Shown here: positions 16,173 through 24,993 of the stretch, in pieces
Position numbering within the stretch: position 1 is the stretch's first letter
Layout: each line of letters opens with the position of its first letter
Virus record (IMG/VR): IMGVR_UViG_2698536570_000003
Span: 1-35,706 of that record
Source: a virus
Taxonomy: Duplodnaviria > Heunggongvirae > Uroviricota > Caudoviricetes
Length of the DNA stretch: 35,706 bases
Strand: one strand, 5' to 3'
The notes under the pieces: generated by a model
The model's database searches: none
What the model saw: the letters and a program-made list of their open reading frames with translations, nothing else
What the model was told of the DNA's origin: nothing
Position numbers and translations under genes: made by a program

Positions 16173-16227
16173 CCTGACCCTTCATCACTAAAGGCCGCCT
16201 GTGCGGCTTTTTTTACGGGATTTTTTT

Positions 16228-17160
16228 ATGTCGATGTACACAACCGCCCAGCTGCTGGCGGCAAATGAGCAGAAATTTAAGTTTGATCCGCTGTTTCTGC
16301 GTCTCTTTTTCCGTGAGAGCTATCCCTTCACTACGGAGAAAGTCTATCTCTCACAAATTCCGGGACTGGTAAACATGGCGCTGTACGTTTCGCCGATTGT
16401 TTCCGGTGAGGTTATCCGTTCCCGTGGCGGCTCCACCTCTGAATTTACGCCGGGATATGTCAAACCCAAGCATGAGGTGAATCCGCAGATGACCCTGCGT
16501 CGCCTGCCGGATGAAGATCCACAGAATCTGGCGGACCCGGCTTACCGCCGCCGTCGCATCATCATGCAGAACATGCGAGACGAAGAGCTGGCCATTGCTC
16601 AGGTCGAAGAGATGCAGGCAGTTTCTGCCGTGCTCAAGGGCAAATACACCATGACCGGTGAAGCCTTCGATCCGGTTGAGGTGGATATGGGCCGCAGTGA
16701 AGCGAATAACATCACACAGTCTGGCGTCACGGAGTGGAGCAAGCGTGACAAGTCCACGTATGACCCGACCGACGATATCGAAGCCTACGCGCTGAACGCC
16801 AGCGGCGTGGTGAATATCATCGTGTTTGACCCGAAAGGCTGGGCGCTGTTCCGTTCCTTCAAAGCCGTCAGGGAGAAGCTGGATACCCGTCGCGGCTCTC
16901 ATTCCGAACTGGAGACAGCGGTAAAAGACCTGGGCAAAGCGGTGTCTTATAAGGGAATGTATGGCGATGTGGCCATCGTCGTGTATTCCGGACAGTACGT
17001 GGAAAACGGCGTCAAAAAGAACTTCCTGCCGGACAACACGATGGTGCTGGGTAACACTCATGCACGCGGTCTGCGCACCTATGGCTGTATTCAGGATGCG
17101 GATGCATTGAGTGAGGGTATTAATGCGTCTCCCCGTTATCCGAAAAACTGGAAGACATGA
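16228..17160 (+). pseudogene. E: major capsid protein gpE, N-terminal 312 codons, interrupted; stop codon TGA supplied by the first bases of the insertion
   Basis: MSMYTTAQLLAANEQKFKFDPLF... matches lambda E up to ...PRYPKNWKT, then stop; the missing 29-codon C-terminus is at 24857-24952. Confidence 0.88.
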
Positions 17161-17202
17161 TCCACCGCGCGATAAATAAGCCGCAATCCGTGAGATAAAT
17201 GG
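17158..17202. repeat. left terminal region of insertion (TGATCC..., GATAAATA at 17171, CCGTGAGATAAATGG at 17188)
   Basis: Motifs mirror the right end in reverse complement. Confidence 0.6.
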
Positions 17203-17218
17203 ACACGGTGCGGCTTTT
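17180..17218 (+). terminator. hairpin plus T-run just inside left end of insertion
   Basis: GCCGCAATCCGTG...CACGGTGCGGC followed by TTTT; would stop read-through from E. Confidence 0.4.
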
Positions 17219-17245
17219 CAGATACTGCAAAGGAATTACAAATTA

Positions 17246-19723
17246 TCAGTCGTAAGCAACCCGGCGCTTACGGGCAAGAATAGCTTCCAGCGCTCTTTCA
17301 ATCTCAGGAATGGACAGCTTAAGCGCATTCGCTACATCCGGTGCTGGTGACTTGTTCTTGCCATCAATATAGATATGGTTAATGACGTTAATCCCTGCAC
17401 CTGCCGGTGAATGTGAATCCCGGCCTCTGGATAAGGTAAGGTCGCCGCGCATATAGCGCTCTAATACGGGTGGTACTTTCGGTACATCCGGCACCATCAT
17501 ATCAGCCAGCCGCGAGGAGGCTTTTAGCGCCAGCGATGCAGACTGACCGATACCAATCGCCGCCCCTTCTGCGATGTTTGAACCGAAGCCCATAAAGACC
17601 CGGCTTGGCGAGTGAATCCCCAGCTTTTCCTTGAACCACCCGCCGACGCTATCGCCCATCTCGGTAACGGTATTCTTGAGCGACTCCCACTTATTTTTGA
17701 TACCGTTCACCAGTCCGTCAATCAGGTGACCGCCAAACTCGGTAAACTGGCCGGGAAGGTCGATGTTAAACCACTTCATGACCCCCGCAAACGCCTTGTA
17801 GAACAGCCCCAGCGGCGACCAGTTCAGGATTAGCTTACTGACGCCGAGAACGCCGCCGTTAAAGGCCGTTTTGACTTCCTCCCATCGCTGTGAGAACCAT
17901 CGACTTATTGCCCCCCAGTTGCGGTATATCAGGTATGCGCCCCCGGCGATGACGGTTATCGCAATGCCTAAGGGATTCATCATCAGCGCCCGGCCAAACC
18001 AGAGAAATGCTTTTGCAACGACCATGACGCCCCTGAACAGCCCACCTGCCAGCGCTTTACCCAGCGTCCCGGCTCCCTTCGCTACGGTACTGAATCCAGT
18101 AGCCAGCCAGCGCAACCTGCCACCAACACCAAGTGCGGCTTTCAGCTTCACCCAATGAGTGTGTACCAGAACAGCGTTTTTCCACATCCCAACAAAAGGT
18201 GAAAAAAGCAGATTAAGGCCGAGCTTCAGACCGACAGTGGCAATTTTCAGCCCCAGCAGTGCGCCCACGGTTTTTGCCACACCCTGAACAAGCGTCGGAT
18301 GTTGCTCTATCCAGAGCTTCGTTGTCTGAATCATCGGGATTAATTGCCGGGTTGCTGACACAAATGTAGGGGACAACTGATCGCCGAGAGAGATAGATAA
18401 ATCACGGGTGTTTATCATCAGGGCTTTGGTTGCTTCCAGCGGCGATTTGAGCCTTTCAGCATAGGATGCCGCCAGCAGGTCATTATCAGCCGCTTTAAGT
18501 GCACCAGAGCGGATTGCCCTGTATTTATCCATGTTAGCAAGCATAGGGCGAACGAACGCCATTACCTGCATATCGGTGAACATCTCACCCAGCCCAAAGT
18601 TTTTAGCCAGACTTTGTAAGGCCTCGTCCCGCGCTTTGTTGTCCTGAATTTGCATTGCGGATTTAAAACCAGCCAGAGCTTTCGGACTCGTTGCATTAAG
18701 GTATCTTTGGGTTACATCCAGCATACCTTCAATGGGGGAAACTCCGGCTGCTTTATAATTCGCAAGAGACCCCATCAGGTCGATACCTAAATCGGCAAAT
18801 CGCTTCTGCGTATCAGGCGCAAAAATCTTGGTGAGGAAGTTCCTGAAATTGTTTGCAGTCTCATCCGGTGAACCTGAACCAATCATAGCGACCTGCAAAC
18901 TGGCCCCAATCTCCGCCACTGCATCCTTACCGTCTGCAATACCCTGCATCATCGGCGCAAGCGACTGAATCCATTTCACCTGGTCAGGGATTTCAAAAGA
19001 CCCCTGGTCACCTGCGTAGGCCATGATGTTCTGTACCGCGCCAAATTCTTTTGCGCTGCCTTTCAGCGAGTTTTGCCACACCGCCGCAACCTTTGCCCAT
19101 TCCGTTCCTGCGGTACGGGTTGCCGTGGCTGCACGGGCGATATTCGGCATGTAGTTGCCAATATCTGAAAGCCCGTCAATGTTATCGCTGATAAGTGAAC
19201 CAACGGCGTCCTGCATATCGCTCTGATACTGGTTGTATTTGAGCGACCACCCTTTGATTTGCTCTCCCAGAGTCTTACGGGTTTTATCGTCATATTTCGC
19301 TGTGATTGACATATCAATCATTTTATCTTCAAACGATGCCGACTGTTCTATAGCCGGGGACACAAGACTGTAAGCAGCCCTGACTTGTGCATACGCCTCT
19401 ACTCCCTGACCGTAGAGCGCCATGCGGTTAGATTTCAGGGCGTCAGAAGTGGCAGACGCTGCCGACAGGCGGGACTGCTGGCGGTTAAGCTGTTCCAGCG
19501 TTCTGCCGACCCGTTGCAGGTCATTGTTCAGGCGCGAGGCTACGCCCGAACCAACCTGACCGTAACGCTGCATGGCGCGTGACAGGCTGCTTTGCTGCTC
19601 CGTCAGTCGGCGTGAGGTGTCGCCGAGAGAATCCAGAGTACGCCGGGTACTGCTCATCGCGGAACGAAAACTGCTCCCGACAATGCCGCCAATCATCACG
19701 CCAACAGAAAAATTATTGCTCAT
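17246..19723 (-). CDS. tape-measure-like protein (825 aa)
   Basis: Long helical N-terminal part, Gly/Trp/Phe-rich hydrophobic middle, C-terminal GIHSPSRVF-type motif; no search run. Confidence 0.55.
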   Translation of the reverse strand: MSNNFSVGVMIGGIVGSSFRSAMSSTRRTLDSLGDTSRRLTEQQSSLSRAMQRYGQVGSGVASRLNNDLQRVGRTLEQLNRQQSRLSAASATSDALKSNRMALYGQGVEAYAQVRAAYSLVSPAIEQSASFEDKMIDMSITAKYDDKTRKTLGEQIKGWSLKYNQYQSDMQDAVGSLISDNIDGLSDIGNYMPNIARAATATRTAGTEWAKVAAVWQNSLKGSAKEFGAVQNIMAYAGDQGSFEIPDQVKWIQSLAPMMQGIADGKDAVAEIGASLQVAMIGSGSPDETANNFRNFLTKIFAPDTQKRFADLGIDLMGSLANYKAAGVSPIEGMLDVTQRYLNATSPKALAGFKSAMQIQDNKARDEALQSLAKNFGLGEMFTDMQVMAFVRPMLANMDKYRAIRSGALKAADNDLLAASYAERLKSPLEATKALMINTRDLSISLGDQLSPTFVSATRQLIPMIQTTKLWIEQHPTLVQGVAKTVGALLGLKIATVGLKLGLNLLFSPFVGMWKNAVLVHTHWVKLKAALGVGGRLRWLATGFSTVAKGAGTLGKALAGGLFRGVMVVAKAFLWFGRALMMNPLGIAITVIAGGAYLIYRNWGAISRWFSQRWEEVKTAFNGGVLGVSKLILNWSPLGLFYKAFAGVMKWFNIDLPGQFTEFGGHLIDGLVNGIKNKWESLKNTVTEMGDSVGGWFKEKLGIHSPSRVFMGFGSNIAEGAAIGIGQSASLALKASSRLADMMVPDVPKVPPVLERYMRGDLTLSRGRDSHSPAGAGINVINHIYIDGKNKSPAPDVANALKLSIPEIERALEAILARKRRVAYD

Positions 19724-19755
19724 GGTTCACTCCGGTAATGAGTGGTTCGGTGGCG

Positions 19756-20349
19756 TCATTCGGTCAGGGACAGGCCGCTGATTCCGGTAATCCCGGCAAT
19801 TTCCTCGCTGACAGCCATCAGTTCACTTTCAAGCCCGGTACGTTCGCTGACCAGCGCCGCAACGGTCTTACGGCGTTCTGCCAGTGACGGAAGTTTGTCA
19901 TTGCCCCACACCACGCTTTTATCCTTCTTAAGCGCTTCGGTCAGGCGGGTGGCGACCACATCCGGGAAGAAAAAGCAGAGCTTGCGCATAACCGCCATCC
20001 CGGTATCAGCCGGGGAGATGTTTCCACCCAACCCCACCAGACGGAACAGGCCGGAAATATCGCCGCTCTCATTCTCCAGATTGCCCCAGCGTTCGGCGTT
20101 CCCTTCACTGCCGGAACTGTTGCAGAGGACACGCTTGAATGACTGATATTCTTCCTGCCCGAATCGCTCAATATATTCAGGAATGAAAGAACAGTAATCA
20201 TTAAGCGATAAAGGCATATCCTGTAATGTGGTTATTTCGCCGTTAATTTCACTAATGCGGCGAGAGAGTTTTTCTTTCTGCTCATTCAGGGAGGCAAGAT
20301 TATTTTTAACGGCGTTCAGTGCTTCGATAAGGGAAATAACTGGTTTCAT
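19756..20349 (-). CDS. hypothetical protein with N-terminal coiled coil (197 aa); chaperone or scaffold candidate
   Basis: ORF in track, directly upstream of the tape-measure-like gene. Confidence 0.4.
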   Translation of the reverse strand: MKPVISLIEALNAVKNNLASLNEQKEKLSRRISEINGEITTLQDMPLSLNDYCSFIPEYIERFGQEEYQSFKRVLCNSSGSEGNAERWGNLENESGDISGLFRLVGLGGNISPADTGMAVMRKLCFFFPDVVATRLTEALKKDKSVVWGNDKLPSLAERRKTVAALVSERTGLESELMAVSEEIAGITGISGLSLTE

Positions 20350-20350
20350 T

Positions 20351-20965
20351 TTAATAACTCCAGATAAAAGGCGTGGTGAGTGTGAGTGCTTCGGAATAGG
20401 AGACGTTACAGGCTTCGCTTACATCCTTTATTAAAAGGTGCTGCGCTGCTCTCTGGCTGTCAGCTATGCCGTCGAACTCTGAGAAATAAACGTGTGATTC
20501 ATTGTGACCAAAACAGACCGGGTAAGCGCTTTCCATAAATTCCACCTGCTCCAGCCCTTTAACGGCTGGCGGCTGTGAGCCGAGAAAACCGATATGGCGT
20601 AGATACCAAGCTCCGGTGCCTGCCGGGTTGCTGGCCTCGCCGGGCTTATAGAATGACGCAGATACTTTCCTGTAACGCCCTGAGCGCACCAGCCCCAGCA
20701 GGGTATCATCCGGTTTTACCAGTGCGAAAAGCCTGCCGTTCTTGCTTATCAGTCCGGTGGTTTCGCCATAGGCCGGGCTGTTACTGGCCGGATGCCCCAG
20801 ACACAGCGGCGCACCGTAACCCGCGCTGCGATAGCCGTTATAGGCCGCTGCCATGTTGTCGATATCCTCGTCGGAAAAGCTGATTTCCTGTCCCGCCATC
20901 GCGGTATGCGTTCCCGCCCGGAATATCTCAATCGTTTTCCAGTTGCCCAAATTAAGATTTGTCAT
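20351..20965 (-). CDS. hypothetical protein (204 aa), tentatively Mu gpI-like protease-domain
   Basis: Motifs RSGRYRKVSASFY and LRHIGFLGSQPPAVKGL resemble my recollection of Mu-I family proteins; recall is uncertain. Confidence 0.35.
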   Translation of the reverse strand: MTNLNLGNWKTIEIFRAGTHTAMAGQEISFSDEDIDNMAAAYNGYRSAGYGAPLCLGHPASNSPAYGETTGLISKNGRLFALVKPDDTLLGLVRSGRYRKVSASFYKPGEASNPAGTGAWYLRHIGFLGSQPPAVKGLEQVEFMESAYPVCFGHNESHVYFSEFDGIADSQRAAQHLLIKDVSEACNVSYSEALTLTTPFIWSY

Positions 20966-21007
20966 TTACCTGTTCTCGGTTGTGATGTGTAAACAGTGCT
21001 TTGCTGC

Positions 21008-21382
21008 TTAGTGTCTGGCAGCGCTATCTTTCAGGCTGTTTCTGTATTCACGGCGTTTTTGGGCGATAATGTTGTAAATCCATTGCAGGGAATAGCCGTA
21101 TTTTTTCGCTATTTCAGCGATGGGAATACCTTCATTAAAGTCTGCAAAAACCAGATCATATTTCTCTTCATTCTGGTCTTTTGTTCCTTTTGGGAAGTAA
21201 AGGTTAAGCCCGCCGTATACATCTGACAGATACGCCATGATGTCTACAGCGATAGATTCAGACTGACGTTTATCGACACCGTACATGACAAGGCGGCAGG
21301 AAATGTGCGTAGCCATATCACTAAGCACTTCGGCAGATTGACGCATTTTTTGTTTGTTGGTCATGACTATCACCCGTTGCAA
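21008..21382 (-). CDS. Mor-family transcriptional activator-like protein (124 aa)
   Basis: C-terminal half (YGGLNLYFPKG...FADFNEGIPIAEIAKKYGYSLQWIYNIIAQKRR) aligns by eye with Mu Mor HTH region. Confidence 0.55.
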   Translation of the reverse strand: MQRVIVMTNKQKMRQSAEVLSDMATHISCRLVMYGVDKRQSESIAVDIMAYLSDVYGGLNLYFPKGTKDQNEEKYDLVFADFNEGIPIAEIAKKYGYSLQWIYNIIAQKRREYRNSLKDSAARH

Positions 21383-21603
21383 TATCAGTAATTCAGTCAG
21401 AAAAGGCTTTATAAAGCTTTACAGCGTGCGACTGGCGGTAAAGGCGAACCTTGACCGCAGCAAACCAGCCTGACGGCTTAGAAAGCGTTACAGCACCTTG
21501 TTAAAGTCAGTTAATAATATCGGGTGTGGGCGGGGATGTTTTTTAATGTACTTTAGATATGAAGAAGCCCCTCAGAGGAGGGGCTTCGCGGGATTACGCC
21601 AGA

Positions 21604-21894
21604 TTATTGAGGCCGTCTGTCTTTCCTCAATCCATCAAGTAGCGCCATTGCATCAGTAACCAGTATGCCAGCAGCATCCGTAACCATAGAAACATCAGAG
21701 GATGCACATGATTTATCCGTACCTAATGTAGACGCAAAATCAAGTAGCTTACGAACTGCATCAAGTCGGTAGGTGGCAGAGTCGTAAATTAACTCCTGAT
21801 TAGCATCAGTCTTTAAAAACATAATATCATCAGAGGCACCTTGTGAAAATGACGGCATCGCACGGAAAGTATTTTGAGTTTCAGCCTGTTTCAT
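21604..21894 (-). CDS. hypothetical protein (96 aa)
   Basis: ORF in operon context, overlaps neighbour by 4 nt. Confidence 0.35.
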   Translation of the reverse strand: MKQAETQNTFRAMPSFSQGASDDIMFLKTDANQELIYDSATYRLDAVRKLLDFASTLGTDKSCASSDVSMVTDAAGILVTDAMALLDGLRKDRRPQ

Positions 21895-22652
21895 TGTGCA
21901 GCCCTCCGGCTAATAGCGAATTTATTATAAACTTCATAACTGGCAGCATTCAGTCCGGGGTTGTATTTATCAGCCAGAGCACAGGCAATCATATGTTCAA
22001 TAAATTTTGTTATTGCGTTAAGTTCGGTTTCGTCTGAATAACGCAATGCCACTTTGAGTAACTCGCGGCAATATTGCTTTTTATTCTCTTCGATTTGGCC
22101 TGATTGTTTTATTCCTGCCTTTTTATCTAACTCGTCCTCAACAGGCAAAGATGAGATATCCTCTTTATTGGTTAGCGTTCTTTCGCAAATAATATCTTCA
22201 CCAGATTGAATTACGCGCTGCAACTCTCTGGCGCTCATGCGAAGAATATCATCAAGCGTGTGGTCGTTATATGCCCCACCACTGGCAAGGAGATCCAGTG
22301 TCACTTCATCCAGCCGGGCAAGCAGATTTAACTTCGTTTTGCCGATATCTGTTTTGGCAATTGCGGCTCGTGGTGTGTCACCGCCGAACACATGAGCGAT
22401 TCGCATCGCTTTACGTGCATCGGGCAAGTTTATGCGCCATCTGTGAAGAAAGTTCGTAAACTCACCATGTTGCAGTTCCTCTTTACAGGCAAATATTTTC
22501 TTTCCCAAAGAAACCAAGCCTTCGGCCTCCGATGTCGTTTTAGCGTGAGAACTGTGAATCACGCCACTGACCACCGCAGATAAAACACTTTCTTGGTTTG
22601 TTCCAAATGAATCGTTAGACTTATCATTAGCCATGACTGTTATCCTACGCAT
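21891..22652 (-). CDS. hypothetical protein (253 aa, start uncertain), first gene of leftward operon
   Basis: ORF in track; translationally coupled to the 96-aa ORF. Confidence 0.4.
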   Translation of the reverse strand: MRRITVMANDKSNDSFGTNQESVLSAVVSGVIHSSHAKTTSEAEGLVSLGKKIFACKEELQHGEFTNFLHRWRINLPDARKAMRIAHVFGGDTPRAAIAKTDIGKTKLNLLARLDEVTLDLLASGGAYNDHTLDDILRMSARELQRVIQSGEDIICERTLTNKEDISSLPVEDELDKKAGIKQSGQIEENKKQYCRELLKVALRYSDETELNAITKFIEHMIACALADKYNPGLNAASYEVYNKFAISRRAAQ

Positions 22653-22772
22653 AACGGTTTACTGGTTAGGCCATAGCAAGTGCTCGCAACATTTGTTATG
22701 GCCGTTTCTCTAGACCTTTCCCTGTGTTAAGGTATAGACCTAATAAGCAAACACTAAGCTATAGGTCTATAC

Positions 22773-22964
22773 ATGTCAACTATCTTGCGAGATAAAAGCC
22801 CTAAAGGGGCAGGTAAAGCCCCGATGTTCAATGTCAGGATTTCACCAGAACTGAAAGAACAGTTTGAATCACAAGCAAAAAAAGAAGGTGTTAGCTTAGG
22901 GAATTGGCTCAAAGAGCTTGGGAGAGCAGAGCTTAAGCGCAACGGAATTGACCCGAAGGCTTAA
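22773..22964 (+). CDS. Arc/Mnt-like ribbon-helix-helix DNA-binding protein (63 aa)
   Basis: PMFNVRISPELKEQFESQAKKEGVSLGNWLKE fits the RHH pattern of P22 Arc; divergent from the leftward operon. Confidence 0.5.
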   Translation: MSTILRDKSPKGAGKAPMFNVRISPELKEQFESQAKKEGVSLGNWLKELGRAELKRNGIDPKA

Positions 22965-23000
22965 ATTTAGTTACTAAAAAACAATAGCTTAAGGTATTTT

Positions 23001-23086
23001 TGATAAATATTTATCACTTGTATTCGACATCATAGTGATAAATATTTATCATTCACAGCGCATCGGCACATGATAAAATGTTATCA
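23001..23086. promoter_or_regulatory. three 16-bp palindromic operator-like sites, 35 bp centre to centre
   Basis: TGATAAATATTTATCA at 23001-23016 and 23036-23051 (identical, perfect palindromes); TGATAAAATGTTATCA at 23071-23086. Confidence 0.6.
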
Positions 23087-23101
23087 CTTTGAGGCTAGTT
23101 T

Positions 23102-23446
23102 ATGCGTATACATGTTACTCTTAATGGCAAAAAAACAACCATATCGATAGATGACTTGCTCTTCGACTATCTTGGTGCATGGTTGGTTGAACAAAGACCC
23201 AAACTGCACTCAAAACCTAAAGAGCAGTATGACCAAGCTAAGTCTCAGATTCGTAAATATGTGCAAGATAACGCAGAAAAACTCCCATCTAAGAACCTTA
23301 GCCAGCACATACAAAATGCCATTTTAGAAATAATTATGCCGAAAGAATTAAATGAAATTCTAGAGAAAAGAGGGCCAAGATATGAGAAGAAAAAGTTTGA
23401 TGTGACCACAATTTTCCCTGATTGGGAAAATTATCTGAGAAAGTAA
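23102..23446 (+). CDS. hypothetical protein (114 aa), possible DNA-binding/regulatory
   Basis: ORF in track with GAGG RBS, directly after the operator array. Confidence 0.45.
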   Translation: MRIHVTLNGKKTTISIDDLLFDYLGAWLVEQRPKLHSKPKEQYDQAKSQIRKYVQDNAEKLPSKNLSQHIQNAILEIIMPKELNEILEKRGPRYEKKKFDVTTIFPDWENYLRK

Positions 23447-23465
23447 TTAAATCAATGGATTGTAT

Positions 23466-23607
23466 ACCGCTCAGCGCTGAGCGGTTCTGTGGCTCTAGAT
23501 CTGCCAACGTTGGCAGATTTGCCAATACCGCATTTGATTGATGGTATCGAATCGCAAATGTCCCAGCGCTGGGAATCATCCCCAAAGGCGCAGACATCTG
23601 CGCCTTT
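23466..23607. repeat. cluster of four distinct palindromes/hairpins
   Basis: ACCGCTCAGCGCTGAGCGGT (23466-23485), ATCTGCCAACGTTGGCAGAT (23499-23518), TCCCAGCGCTGGGA (23561-23574), AAAGGCGCAGA-CA-TCTGCGCCTTT (23584-23607). Confidence 0.6.
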
Positions 23608-23734
23608 GAGAAGCACGGAACTAAAATCCGTTTCACTGTATGACTGTATGGTATGAGGCTTTCAGATGCTTACTGAGGCTTAAATAAGCTAATGAAGTTT
23701 GCATCATCTGTTCCAAGTTAGTACACTTATCCCT

Positions 23735-23766
23735 GTTAGTGGATGCGTGACGCGCTCTGGTTGAGG
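23735..23766. repeat. left arm of 32-bp perfect inverted repeat
   Basis: GTTAGTGGATGCGTGACGCGCTCTGGTTGAGG; exact reverse complement at 23925-23956. Confidence 0.8.
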
Positions 23767-23820
23767 CTCATTACCTTGAACAGAGATTCATCACCTTAAG
23801 CACCCAAAGAAAAAAGCCTG

Positions 23821-23870
23821 NNNNNNNNNNNNNNNNNNNNNNNNNNNNNNNNNNNNNNNNNNNNNNNNNN
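23821..23870. other. run of 50 N (assembly gap or masked sequence of unknown true length)
   Basis: Seen directly. Confidence 0.99.
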
Positions 23871-23924
23871 GCATGTGAAACGTGTTCAAGCCCTGGCTGG
23901 ATTACGGGTGGTGCCGCTCCAGTG

Positions 23925-23956
23925 CCTCAACCAGAGCGCGTCACGCATCCACTAAC
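23925..23956. repeat. right arm of 32-bp perfect inverted repeat
   Basis: CCTCAACCAGAGCGCGTCACGCATCCACTAAC. Confidence 0.8.
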
Positions 23957-24028
23957 AATGCAACACCGTTAACCAGGCAGTGGAAGGGCTTTAATGGTGA
24001 TGCCGCGCTCCTGTAGTGGAGCAAACGG

Positions 24029-24112
24029 ATGAAGGGATTTCTTCAAATCGCTGTCATCGCTCTTAAGGCAATTGTCGCCTTTATTGAGCTGATTCTGGCC
24101 TGCTTACCGTAA
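24029..24112 (+). CDS. candidate 27-aa hydrophobic peptide (MKGFLQIAVIALKAIVAFIELILACLP), type I toxin-like
   Basis: ATG with GGAG 8 nt upstream; single predicted TM helix; followed 20 nt later by a strong terminator. Confidence 0.3.
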   Translation: MKGFLQIAVIALKAIVAFIELILACLP

Positions 24113-24133
24113 GCAACCGGGAAACGTAAGTAA

Positions 24134-24166
24134 GGCCACCGGCTCACCCCCGGTGGCCTTTAACAT
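24134..24166 (+). terminator. intrinsic terminator
   Basis: GGCCACCGG-CTCACCC-CCGGTGGCC followed by TTTAACATTTT. Confidence 0.55.
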
Positions 24167-24365
24167 TTTAAGTCTGCCTCGCCGCTCTACCGGCCATTCA
24201 TTTTTGAAGCTGGCTGAGTGTTAAGGCTAAATTTAAGGTGGCACTGACGGCTTAAATTCCTGCGATATCCTGGCATGTCGTTATGATTAAAGCGCATTAG
24301 AAACAAATTTCATCGTTCTGATTAAACATGTTTACCTGACTATTCAAAGTAAGGTAAATCTCAAT

Positions 24366-24710
24366 ATGGCACGACCTCAGACGGTTAATCAGTTACCCGA
24401 CTCTATCAAGAAGAAACTGAATAAAAAGCTGACGGAAAGTTCATTCAGCGGCTACGTTCAGCTTACTGAGTGGTTAAACTCGTTGGGATACCCGGTTTCA
24501 AAATCATCAGTGCATCGCTATGCTGAACGTCGCCGCCTGTCACTTATAGCAGGGAGCGATACTCCCGGCGCAACAGCTAACATTGTGGATACGAAACTTC
24601 GCTGTCTGGAGCTTGCCTCGCTCTCTTTAAAAACGGACGAGAAGTTGTCAGCAGATGAAGTAAAAAAATATGCTGAAAATTTGATGGGGTGGCTTTACGA
24701 CCAGAAATAA
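24366..24710 (+). CDS. HTH-containing small protein (114 aa) near right end of insertion; regulator or terminase-small-subunit-like
   Basis: Segment YVQLTEWLNSLGYPVSKSSVHRYAERRR looks like a helix-turn-helix; ORF in track. Confidence 0.45.
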   Translation: MARPQTVNQLPDSIKKKLNKKLTESSFSGYVQLTEWLNSLGYPVSKSSVHRYAERRRLSLIAGSDTPGATANIVDTKLRCLELASLSLKTDEKLSADEVKKYAENLMGWLYDQK

Positions 24711-24809
24711 TTGACTGCGCGGGAGGCGTGCCCTCCCGTTACGTATATGGAAACTGTTTTACAAATTCCCATCCAACCTTTTCCAACATCTTCCCCCATA
24801 GTCCCACAA

Positions 24810-24850
24810 TTATCTCACGGATAACCCTGTATTTATCTCATGTCTAATCA
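24810..24850. repeat. right terminal region of insertion (reverse complement carries CCGTGAGATAA at +30 and CATGAGATAAATA at +8)
   Basis: Mirrors the left end. Confidence 0.6.
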
Positions 24851-24856
24851 AAGACA

Positions 24857-24952
24857 TCCGGCGATCCGGCGCGAGAGTTCACCATGATTCAGTCAGCACC
24901 GCTGATGCTGCTGGCTGATCCTGATGAGTTCGTGTCCGTTCAACTGGCGTAA
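24857..24952 (+). pseudogene. E: detached C-terminal 31 codons of major capsid gene E (SGDPAREFTMIQSAPLMLLADPDEFVSVQLA)
   Basis: Matches the lambda E C-terminus; in frame with the N-terminal fragment if 17158-24856 is removed. Confidence 0.85.
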
Positions 24953-24993
24953 TCATGGCCCTTCGGGGCCATTTTCTCTCTGTGGAGGAATCC

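What the first reader, a model, noticed from the sequence alone, without database searches (positions are those of the whole stretch)
21604..22652. Two proteins of unknown function lead the cargo operon
The 253-aa and 96-aa ORFs are the first genes transcribed from the divergent promoter region (22653-22772). I cannot place either in any family from sequence. Promoter-proximal position ahead of a Mor-like activator is where early anti-host or replication functions usually sit.
Basis: inference. Interest (0 to 1): 0.45.

Follow-up and report, generated by a model that had tools for sequence, protein, structure and literature searches.

The report
Early gene pair of mini-Mu satellite
The two unknown ORFs are real genes: the first two genes of a 7.7-kb transposase-less copy of a Mu-like (BcepMu-type) phage that has jumped into the capsid gene of a lambda-like prophage. 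This element looks like a so far undescribed kind of phage satellite.

Summary
Both ORFs exist at the stated coordinates and are real genes. They are conserved from E. coli to Pectobacterium, with dN/dS of 0.05-0.46. The 253-aa call is about 6 codons too long; the true protein is 247 aa, starting at 22634.

They are not lambda cargo. They open a 7,693-bp element (window 17158-24850) inserted inside the lambdoid major capsid gene E. The element has 5'-TG...CA-3' ends and a 6-bp target duplication (AAGACA). Both ends closely match those of E. coli Bcepmuvirus prophages (PhiKM, EC958), which also make 6-bp duplications. The element has no transposase or MuB gene. Near-identical copies sit at many chromosomal sites in Yersinia, E. 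coli and Salmonella. It is therefore a mobile, helper-dependent mini-Mu.

Protein 1 is a DUF3102 protein. Its core folds like a ParB/KorB DNA-binding domain and is 34% identical to the helper gene that sits directly upstream of the transposase. It also carries a satellite-specific C-terminal domain of about 60 aa. Protein 2 (96 aa) is a helical hairpin with a conserved SQG motif and belongs to no annotated family. The C-terminal domain and p96 always travel together, upstream of a Mor gene. Their biochemical role is inferred, not shown.

The parts
17152..17157 (.). Target-site duplication copy 1 (AAGACA), inside lambdoid capsid gene E
   Evidence: Comparison with the uninterrupted E gene of phage 2G7b
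17158..24850 (.). Whole non-autonomous Bcepmuvirus-type element. It is 7,693 bp in the window and about 7,754 bp in RefSeq, because 23822-23871 is masked. Ends are 5'-TG...CA-3'.
17158..17215 (+). End homologous to the helper's right end (TGATCCACCGCGCGATAAAT...GTGAGATAAATGG). It holds two 12-bp repeats, at 17166-17177 and 17189-17200, spaced 23 bp apart.
   Evidence: compared with the EC958 prophage right end TGATGCGCCGCGCGATAAATGCACTCTATCTTGTGCGATAAATGG
17246..19723 (-). Tape-measure protein, 825 aa
   Evidence: Pfam PhageMin_Tail 4e-19 and phrog_28. 70.6% identical to the PhiKM tape measure over 88% of its length. The helper tape measure is 983 aa.
19756..20349 (-). p197, with an N-terminal coiled coil; no detectable homologue in the helper
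20351..20965 (-). p204, homologue of the N-terminal (protease) part of the Mu gpI-like head protease/scaffold, without the scaffold part
   Evidence: phrog_976 at 1.8e-45. 41% identical to residues 4-151 of PhiKM gpI-like. Its distant homologue hits Pfam Mu-like_Pro_N.
21008..21364 (-). Mor-family transcription activator (118 aa by the RefSeq start)
   Evidence: Pfam Mor 1.7e-21
21403..21422 (-). Invariant motif GTAAAGCTTTATAAAG(G/C)CTTT, about 40 nt upstream of Mor. The same core sits upstream of head gene I in PhiKM and phiE255. Candidate late promoter or activator site.
21536..21557 (-). Invariant 22-nt motif TCTAAAGTACATTAAAAAACAT of unknown function
21564..21587 (-). GC-rich hairpin (10-bp stem) 17 nt after the p96 stop codon; terminator-like
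   Evidence: -22.8 kcal/mol, z = -4.43
21604..21894 (-). p96 (second ORF of the finding). The N-terminal 30 aa are disordered and carry a conserved F-x-x-M-P-x-x-SQG motif. The rest is a helical hairpin (helices 33-58 and 65-92).
21891..22634 (-). 247-aa protein (first ORF of the finding, trimmed start). It has a variable N-terminus, a DUF3102 core (about residues 35-145, ParB/KorB-like helix-turn-helix fold), a linker, and a satellite-specific C-terminal domain (about residues 183-247: YCREL..LRY..PGLNAASYEVYNKF).
22669..22703 (.). Inverted repeat IR1 (GGCCATAGCAAGTG / CATTTGTTATGGCC) in the leader of the 247-aa gene. An equivalent palindrome occupies the same position in the other two control-region types.
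22732..22779 (.). Inverted repeat IR2 (GTATAGACCTA-N19-TAGGTCTATAC), overlapping the inferred early promoter (-35 TTGACA at 22774-22779, -10 TAGTGT at 22751-22756, minus strand)
   Evidence: inference; not called by the generic scan
22773..22964 (+). Divergent 63-aa ribbon-helix-helix protein (HicB/Arc-like); candidate repressor of the element
23102..23446 (+). 114-aa protein in the variable arm; no family
24366..24710 (+). 114-aa protein with the N-terminal DNA-binding part of Mu gp27 (small-terminase-like)
   Evidence: Pfam Phage_Mu_Gp27 3.6e-14, residues 7-55 only. The helper version is 181 aa and full length.
24808..24850 (-). End homologous to the helper's left (Mor-side) end: TGATTAGACATGAGATAAATACAGGGTTATCCGTGAGATAATT. 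It holds two repeats, at 24808-24819 and 24831-24842.
   Evidence: compared with the PhiKM/EC958 end TGATTAGACTTGAGATAAATGACAGGGAATAAGTGAGATATTT
24851..24856 (.). Target-site duplication copy 2 (AAGACA); the 3' part of gene E resumes here

Best explanation
The two ORFs are the translationally coupled early gene pair of a helper-dependent mini-Mu: a 7.7-kb element derived from BcepMu-type transposable phages.

Shown:
- The element keeps both phage ends, a Mor activator, a head-protease fragment, a coiled-coil protein and a tape measure. It has lost transposase A and the MuB-like ATPase.
- It has inserted into lambdoid capsid gene E with a 6-bp target duplication.
- Near-identical copies are scattered over many sites in enterobacterial genomes. 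It must therefore be moved in trans by the transposase of a PhiKM/EC958-type prophage, whose ends and duplication length it shares.
- Protein 1 has a DUF3102 core homologous to the helper protein encoded just upstream of the transposase. Its fold resembles the ParB/KorB helix-turn-helix DNA-binding domain. This core is fused to a C-terminal domain of about 60 aa found only in these satellites.
- Protein 2 (p96) is a helical hairpin with a disordered, conserved SQG-motif N-terminus.
- The C-terminal domain and p96 always co-occur, upstream of Mor.

Inferred:
- The pair is made from the repressor-controlled early promoter once the ribbon-helix-helix repressor is lifted.
- The DUF3102 module takes the protein to DNA, either at the element's own control region or at the sites used by the helper's DUF3102 protein next to the transposition machinery.
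- The C-terminal domain and p96 form the satellite-specific effector that couples the element to the helper. That coupling would be either recruiting or diverting helper transposition-replication, or triggering the switch to the Mor-driven late unit.
- The late unit starts at a promoter motif shared with the helper's head-gene promoter.

The confidence of 0.5 is for the whole statement. The 'shown' layer alone I would put at about 0.9, DNA binding by the DUF3102 core at about 0.65, and the specific helper-coupling role of the C-terminal domain and p96 at about 0.35.
For: Element and mobility:
- E is split, with an AAGACA duplication and TG...CA ends.
- Eight independent insertions carry perfect 6-bp duplications.
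- Four Yersinia copies at four different loci are 99.96-100% identical over 7,213 bp.
- Copies with an identical first protein occupy six different E. coli loci, some inside genes.
- No rve/DDE or AAA+ gene is present in the element.
- Both ends match the PhiKM/EC958 prophage ends, and that prophage has a 6-bp duplication, GAAGAA.
- The helper's DUF3102/transposase A/MuB region matched 643 of 5,426 complete E. coli genomes, against 33 for the element.

Protein 1:
- Pfam DUF3102 and phrog_1748.
- 34% identity (E 2e-18) to the PhiKM DUF3102 protein over residues 25-186.
- Conserved gene order of regulator, DUF3102, transposase A, then B in PhiKM, phiE255, Ps59 and KP12.
- AlphaFold2 core pLDDT of 81-91.
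- Foldseek also ranks Spo0J first, with probability 0.97-0.99. ParB-like phage proteins appear in the viral structure library.

C-terminal domain plus p96 as a unit:
- hhalign gives 98% probability between the C-terminal domain and the gene preceding p96-like genes in four more distant elements, whose N-terminal modules differ.
- The two genes overlap by ATGA.
- p96 is predicted as a helical hairpin with pLDDT 81-95.
- The p96 family has 25 representatives at E <= 0.001. All five relatives whose contigs were examined sit next to or a few genes upstream of a Mor gene, though the most distant one (L019, weak Mor hit) lacks the C-terminal domain.

Two transcription units.

Purifying selection on all six genes.
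Against: - No experiment or direct computation shows DNA binding, a complex between the C-terminal domain and p96, or any contact with helper proteins.
- The DUF3102 module is dispensable in some apparently intact copies. Salmonella L032 has only a 114-aa form, and Pseudomonas-type relatives use a weak Bro-N-like module instead. A strict role as a transposase adaptor is therefore doubtful.
- The recognition-helix residues do not strictly co-vary with the control-region type.
- Whether strain AW1.7 carries a helper prophage was not determined.
- Packaging of the element into helper particles is untested, so 'satellite' rather than merely 'non-autonomous transposon' is an inference from gene content.
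Confidence: 0.5

Rival explanations
1. Helper-derepression module, analogous to P4 epsilon or to phage antirepressors. The small C-terminal domain/p96 effector, delivered by a swappable DNA-binding or Bro-N-type N-terminal module, inactivates the helper prophage's repressor so that the satellite can induce its helper.
For: - The architecture, a swappable N-terminal module plus a constant small C-terminal effector, resembles phage antirepressors. Distant relatives have weak Bro-N matches (E 0.03-0.04).
- The pair is the first thing expressed from the repressor-controlled promoter.
- The C-terminal domain and p96 have no counterpart in the helper, as expected for a hijacking factor.
Against: - The Bro-N matches are below threshold.
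- There is no similarity to any known antirepressor (KilAC/ANT) or to P4 epsilon in Pfam, PHROG or NCBIfam.
- It does not explain why the enteric versions keep a homologue of the helper's transposase-adjacent DUF3102 protein.
Confidence: 0.2
2. Ner-like autoregulator only. The 247-aa protein binds the palindrome in its own leader (IR1) and simply tunes early and repressor transcription of the element. p96 would be an unrelated small early protein.
For: - It is the first gene of the early unit, as ner is in Mu.
- An equivalent palindrome of about 35 nt sits at the same position in all three control-region types. The N-terminal third of the protein is swapped together with the control region.
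- The fold is ParB/KorB-like, and KorB is a repressor.
Against: - The Yersinia and E. coli L026 copies share one control region but differ in the predicted recognition helix. The window and Yersinia copies share helix residues but not the control region.
- The DUF3102 part is absent from some intact copies, whereas the C-terminal domain and p96 are always kept.
- The ATGA coupling and strict co-occurrence argue that p96 is functionally linked.
Confidence: 0.15
3. Decaying remnant. The element is just a deleted BcepMu-type prophage, and the two ORFs are leftovers without present function.
For: - The element lacks most phage genes.
- Some copies are clearly degenerate. The ST131-type copy in brxC has lost the tape measure, has a truncated first gene and carries an IS5.
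Against: - The same six-gene order is kept from E. coli to Pectobacterium at 38-59% protein identity, with dN/dS of 0.02-0.46.
- The gene order is rearranged relative to the helper, so it is not a simple deletion.
- Near-identical copies at many sites show recent movement.
- More distant versions of the architecture exist in other Gammaproteobacteria.
Confidence: 0.05

Closest known systems
DUF3102 proteins of Bcepmuvirus and B3-like transposable phages (phiE255 gp41, PhiKM XRL29426.1, EC958 WP_000533817.1, Ps59 gp12)
   Same: They share the DUF3102 core (34% identity, E 2e-18) and the early-operon position. They also share the conserved GKTKL...LDDI..M..REL block.
   Different: The phage proteins are about 305 aa, have a different C-terminal third, and are followed by the transposase A and B genes. 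The window protein is 247 aa, ends in a satellite-specific domain of about 60 aa, and is followed by p96 and Mor with no transposase. No function has been published for either.
ParB/Spo0J and KorB DNA-binding (helix-turn-helix) domains
   Different: There is no ParB N-terminal CTPase/Srx domain and no sequence-level similarity. This is a resemblance of fold only.
Engineered mini-Mu / mini-D3112 elements, and non-autonomous transposons in general
   Same: Two phage ends without a transposase, mobilised in trans, making target duplications (mini-Mu concept as described in PMC8705779 and PMC3145075).
   Different: This is a natural, conserved family with its own regulated gene set under purifying selection: repressor, early pair, Mor, protease fragment, coiled-coil protein and tape measure. 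It is not a laboratory deletion.
Phage satellites (P4, PICI/cfPICI, PLE)
   Same: A small helper-dependent element that keeps a late-gene activator homologous to the helper's (Mor, compare P4 delta), morphogenesis-modifying homologues (protease fragment, coiled-coil protein, tape measure, gp27 N-terminal domain) and its own repressor. These points are an inference.
   Different: It has no integrase and no primase or replicon. Integration and replication would be by the helper's DDE transposase, through shared Mu-type ends. No such satellite was found in the literature searches.

Membership tests
Pfam DUF3102 (PF11300) / phrog_1748 | Profile match at or above the curated threshold | tested here: met
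   PF11300 scores 24.6 bits against a gathering score of 24.4, which is marginal, over residues 46-149. phrog_1748 gives 2.3e-23. BLASTP gives 2e-18 to the annotated DUF3102 protein of PhiKM.
ParB/KorB family | ParB-type helix-turn-helix DNA-binding domain fold | tested here: inconclusive
ParB/KorB family | N-terminal ParB/Srx (CTP-binding) domain and sequence homology to ParB | tested here: not met
   No ParBc or KorB Pfam hit. A profile search of PDB sequences found nothing relevant.
Bcepmuvirus-type transposable prophage | 5'-TG...CA-3' termini with subterminal transposase-binding repeats and a short target duplication | tested here: met
   The duplication is 6 bp, as in the EC958 prophage. 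TG...CA termini are described for BcepMu-like phages in PMC2628397.
Bcepmuvirus-type transposable prophage | Own rve-type DDE transposase plus an AAA+ MuB-like protein, and a full head/tail gene set | tested here: not met
   No such domains in any element ORF. The helper has rve and AAA_22. The element is therefore a non-autonomous derivative, not a prophage.
Phage satellite | Lacks genes for autonomous propagation but carries helper-related regulatory and morphogenesis genes | tested here: met
Phage satellite | Helper-dependent induction, packaging and transfer | not testable with these tools
   Needs induction and transduction experiments. Only the shared ends and a shared late-promoter motif were shown.
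Phage antirepressors (Bro-N / KilAC / ANT) | Match to the Bro-N, KilA-N or ANT domains | tested here: not met
   No hit for the window protein. Only sub-threshold Bro-N hits (E 0.03-0.04) appear in distant relatives from L021 and L024.
Known anti-phage defence systems (PADLOC) | Match to a PADLOC model | tested here: not met
   No hits for either protein or their neighbours, apart from one insignificant LmuB match to p197.

The most novel reading that the evidence does not exclude
The element is the first recognised family of phage satellites that parasitise transposable (Mu-like, BcepMu-type) phages. It would integrate and replicate by borrowing the helper's DDE transposase through shared ends, switch on through a shared late promoter and its own Mor, and remodel helper virions with its own protease fragment, coiled-coil protein and shorter tape measure. 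The pair studied here, made of a DNA-targeting module, the C-terminal domain and p96, would be its satellite-specific hijacking device.
Probability: 0.4. Interest if true: 0.85.

Novelty: new variant of a known kind. Interest (0 to 1): 0.62.

Why it matters
All well-studied phage satellites (P4, PICIs, cfPICIs, PLEs) use integrases and their own replicons. A conserved, currently mobile family that instead borrows a helper's transposase would add a new way of parasitising phages. It would also explain a recurrent block of genes in enterobacterial genomes annotated as 'hypothetical + Mor + tape measure'.

The element disrupts genes where it lands: a prophage capsid gene here, a portal-like gene elsewhere, and brxC of BREX in ST131-type strains. 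It therefore also acts as a mutagen of prophages and defence systems.

DUF3102, a widespread domain of unknown function, gains a concrete and testable context. It appears as a ParB-like DNA-binding module encoded next to the transposase of BcepMu-type phages.

Tried and rejected
- **Families for p96.** Pfam, PHROG, NCBIfam and PADLOC gave nothing for p96 or its distant relatives.
- **PDB sequence searches.** Profiles of both proteins gave only noise.
- **p96 versus the helper's 105-aa ORF.** The helper has a 105-aa ORF between its DUF3102 gene and the transposase. BLASTP and two independent profiles found no similarity to p96. The apparently strong hit is circular, because alignment A2 contained that helper sequence, and I discarded it.
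- **C-terminal domain versus the helper's DUF3102 C-terminus.** No similarity.
- **p197 versus the helper's scaffold part.** No similarity.
- **Rfam on the element.** Nothing reached threshold.
- **Exact copies of the two intergenic motifs in helper genomes.** None for motif 1. Motif 2 is found only with mismatches.
- **afdb50 fold library.** Unavailable.
- **Co-variation of the DUF3102 recognition helix with the control-region type.** Not consistent, so I do not claim operator binding.
- **Simple deletion remnant.** Rejected on conservation, rearranged gene order and recent mobility.
- **Defence-system cargo.** Rejected, with no PADLOC hits.
- **Helper in AW1.7.** I could not determine whether strain AW1.7 carries a helper prophage.
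Full report
**1. The observation**

They overlap by ATGA.

RefSeq (E. coli AW1.7, NZ_CP073624.1) and all homologues begin the longer one at the next ATG, window 22634, which has an AGGA ribosome-binding site. This gives 247 aa. The upstream ATG is missing from other variants of the control region.

Both are real genes. The pair recurs in the same order in E. coli, Salmonella, Citrobacter, Enterobacter, Yersinia and Pectobacterium. Pairwise dN/dS is 0.28-0.46 for the 247-aa gene and 0.05-0.33 for the 96-aa gene.

**2. The surroundings change the picture**

The window is a lambdoid prophage, with terminase, portal, C, D, E, FI, Z, U, V, G, T and H genes. The stretch 17158-24850 is foreign to it.

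- In related phages such as 2G7b, genes E and FI are adjacent.
- Here E is cut in two, and RefSeq marks it as a pseudogene.
- The insert begins with TG and ends with CA. It is flanked by a 6-bp duplication of E sequence, AAGACA, at 17152-17157 and 24851-24856.
- Each end carries two copies of a 12-bp CGTGAGATAAAT-like repeat spaced 23 bp apart. The two ends are in inverted orientation.

The insert encodes, on the minus strand:
- the 247-aa protein;
- p96;
- a Mor activator;
- a 204-aa homologue of the N-terminal part of the Mu gpI-like head protease;
- a 197-aa coiled-coil protein;
- an 825-aa tape measure.

On the plus strand it encodes:
- a ribbon-helix-helix (RHH) protein;
- a 114-aa protein;
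- a small hydrophobic ORF;
- a 114-aa protein carrying only the N-terminal DNA-binding part of Mu gp27.

No ORF has an rve/DDE, MuB-like or integrase domain.

**3. The element is mobile and depends on a helper**

Evidence for recent movement:
- The Yersinia version (7,213 bp) sits at four different chromosomal sites and is 99.96-100% identical between them.
- An E. coli version sits at six different sites, some inside genes. One of these is a second copy in AW1.7 itself.
- Eight independent insertions show perfect 6-bp duplications.

Evidence for the helper:
- The closest relatives of its proteins are in Bcepmuvirus phages. The tape measure is 70.6% identical to that of E. coli phage PhiKM, and the first protein is 34% identical to PhiKM's DUF3102 protein.
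- Both ends of the element match the two ends of the PhiKM/EC958-type prophage.
  - Left-type end: TGATTAGAC(A/T)TGAGATAAAT...
  - Right-type end: TGAT(CCA/GCG)CCGCGCGATAAAT...GTG(A/C)GATAAATGG
- The EC958 prophage is itself flanked by a 6-bp duplication, GAAGAA.
- That prophage encodes the rve transposase and an AAA+ partner that the element lacks.
- TG...CA termini are described for BcepMu-like phages with rve transposases (PMC2628397).
- The helper's DUF3102/A/B region matched 643 of 5,426 complete E. coli genomes, against 33 for the element.

The gene order is rearranged relative to the helper, so this is not a simple deletion. The six-gene block is kept at 38-59% protein identity in Pectobacterium. 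More distant versions of the same architecture occur in other Gammaproteobacteria. I therefore read it as a stable family of non-autonomous, helper-mobilised mini-Mu elements, most likely satellites.

**4. Protein 1 (247 aa)**

It matches Pfam DUF3102 marginally (24.6 bits against 24.4) and phrog_1748 clearly (2e-23). The family alignment shows three parts:
- a variable N-terminal third;
- a highly conserved centre (TPRAAIAKTGIGKTKL..LARLDEVTLDLLASGGAYNDHTLDDIL.MSARELQ);
- after a variable linker, an almost invariant C-terminal domain (KKQYCREL..VALRYS...PGLNAASYEVYNKF).

In PhiKM/EC958, phiE255, Ps59 and KP12 the DUF3102 homologue (about 305 aa) lies in the early operon, directly upstream of transposase A and B. 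It is often only 2-4 nt from A.

The C-terminal domain has no counterpart in the helper protein. It is nevertheless the part that is conserved most widely. hhalign finds it at 98% probability and 43-52% identity in the gene preceding p96-like genes in distant elements. The N-terminal modules of those genes differ:
- a weak Bro-N-like module;
- a second copy of the C-terminal domain;
- almost nothing, as in the Salmonella 114-aa form and stand-alone proteins of 69-123 aa.

**5. Protein 2 (96 aa)**

It has no Pfam, PHROG, NCBIfam or PADLOC family. A profile search of 1.84 billion representatives found 25 relatives at E <= 0.001, mostly 90-190 aa long (the two weakest hits are long multi-stretch proteins). 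They share F-x-x-[ML]-P-x-x-SQG near the N-terminus and ILLSDA near the C-terminus.

AlphaFold2 gives a disordered N-terminus (residues 1-29) and a confident helical hairpin, with helices 33-58 and 65-92 at pLDDT 81-95.

In the elements examined, the p96-like gene follows a gene carrying the C-terminal domain and precedes a Mor gene. In one weaker relative, inside a primase-type element, a Mor-like gene is still nearby but no C-terminal domain was detected. p96 is unrelated to the helper's 105-aa ORF that occupies the analogous position (one search was circular and is ignored).

**6. Transcription layout**

The control region comes in three unrelated sequence types. All three keep the following:
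- a TTGACA box overlapping the start codon of the divergent RHH gene;
- a 17-nt spacer;
- a TAnnnT box;
- an inverted repeat over the promoter;
- a palindrome of about 35 nt in the leader.

Seventeen nucleotides after the p96 stop codon lies a 10-bp GC-rich hairpin (-22.8 kcal/mol, z = -4.4). It is followed by an invariant 22-nt motif of unknown function.

About 40 nt upstream of Mor lies an invariant GTAAAGCTTTATAAAGGCTTT motif. Its core also lies upstream of head gene I in PhiKM and phiE255.

My inference is that the two genes form an early bicistronic unit, and that Mor-p204-p197-tape measure form a late unit. The late unit would be driven from a promoter of the helper's late type.

**7. 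Mechanism**

Shown:
- real, coupled, conserved early genes of a transposase-less BcepMu-type element;
- a DUF3102 core homologous to the helper's transposase-adjacent protein;
- a ParB-like fold;
- the C-terminal domain and p96 as a constant satellite-specific pair upstream of Mor.

Inferred: after derepression, the DUF3102 module takes the protein to DNA. The C-terminal domain and p96 then act as the satellite-specific effector that couples the element to the helper. They would do so either at the transposition-replication step or at the early-to-late switch.

Two rivals cannot be excluded: a P4-epsilon-like helper derepressor and a pure Ner-like autoregulator. The loss of the DUF3102 module in some intact copies, and the imperfect co-variation of its recognition helix with the control region, argue against any model in which that module is the essential part.

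**8. Known or new**

The held literature has no functional study of DUF3102. It also has no description of satellites of transposable phages.

The protein is a member of DUF3102 with a new C-terminal domain. p96 is an unannotated family. The element is a new variant of two known kinds of thing: phage satellites and non-autonomous transposons.

**Verdict**
- The context is considerably more interesting than 'cargo operon'.
- The biochemical function is still open.

Noticed in passing
window 23744-24160 (N-run at 23822-23871; L001 9640-10130): The window has a masked 50-N run. RefSeq has 111 nt there, including a terminator-like hairpin. The run is bracketed by an inverted repeat of about 36 nt (23744-23779 against 23927-23962). 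Downstream is a 27-aa hydrophobic ORF (24029-24112, MKGFLQIAVIALKAIVAFIELILACLP) with a GGAG ribosome-binding site, then a hairpin at 24132-24160. This looks like a type I toxin-antitoxin-like cassette in the variable arm of the element. There was no Rfam or Pfam match.
   Followed up: partly
window 16201-17157 and 24851-24954: The lambdoid major capsid gene E is split by the element, so this prophage cannot make capsids. In another E. coli (L026/L027) the same element family sits inside a portal-like gene of a different prophage.
   Followed up: partly
L002 15001-21380 (E. coli SK0832; the ST131-type hits match the same query segments at the same identity but their flanks were not examined): A degenerate copy of the element interrupts brxC of a BREX-1 system. 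This copy has lost the tape measure, has a first gene truncated to 159 aa and carries an IS5 insertion.
   Followed up: partly
window 17246-19723; L030 7811-10762: The element's tape measure is 825 aa, against 983 aa in the EC958-type helper. It is about 70% identical over its first 725 residues and has a different C-terminus. Why a 7.7-kb element devotes a third of its length to a tape measure is unexplained.
   Followed up: no
window 21536-21557 (minus strand): A 22-nt motif, TCTAAAGTACATTAAAAAACAT, is invariant from E. coli to Pectobacterium directly after the p96 hairpin. It is absent from the helper genomes, and its function is unknown.
   Followed up: partly
L016 (AW1.7, CP072539.1 2711115-2731852): AW1.7 carries a second, divergent copy of the element family near hrpA. 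Its first protein (P0026) is 65% identical to the one in the window. It also has a different control-region type and a longer Mor (175 aa).
   Followed up: partly
L021-L023, L020, L024, L025: More distant versions of the same architecture occur in other Gammaproteobacteria (metagenome and isolate contigs). They combine a gp27 N-terminal-like gene, a gene with the C-terminal domain, a p96-like gene, Mor, a Mu-like_Pro_N gene and a tape measure of about 1,000 aa. This suggests a broad family.
   Followed up: partly
L005 8546 and 15758: One Yersinia copy has no matching target duplication (ATTACT against CCAAGG), unlike eight other insertions. This could reflect recombination between two copies or an adjacent deletion.
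   Followed up: no
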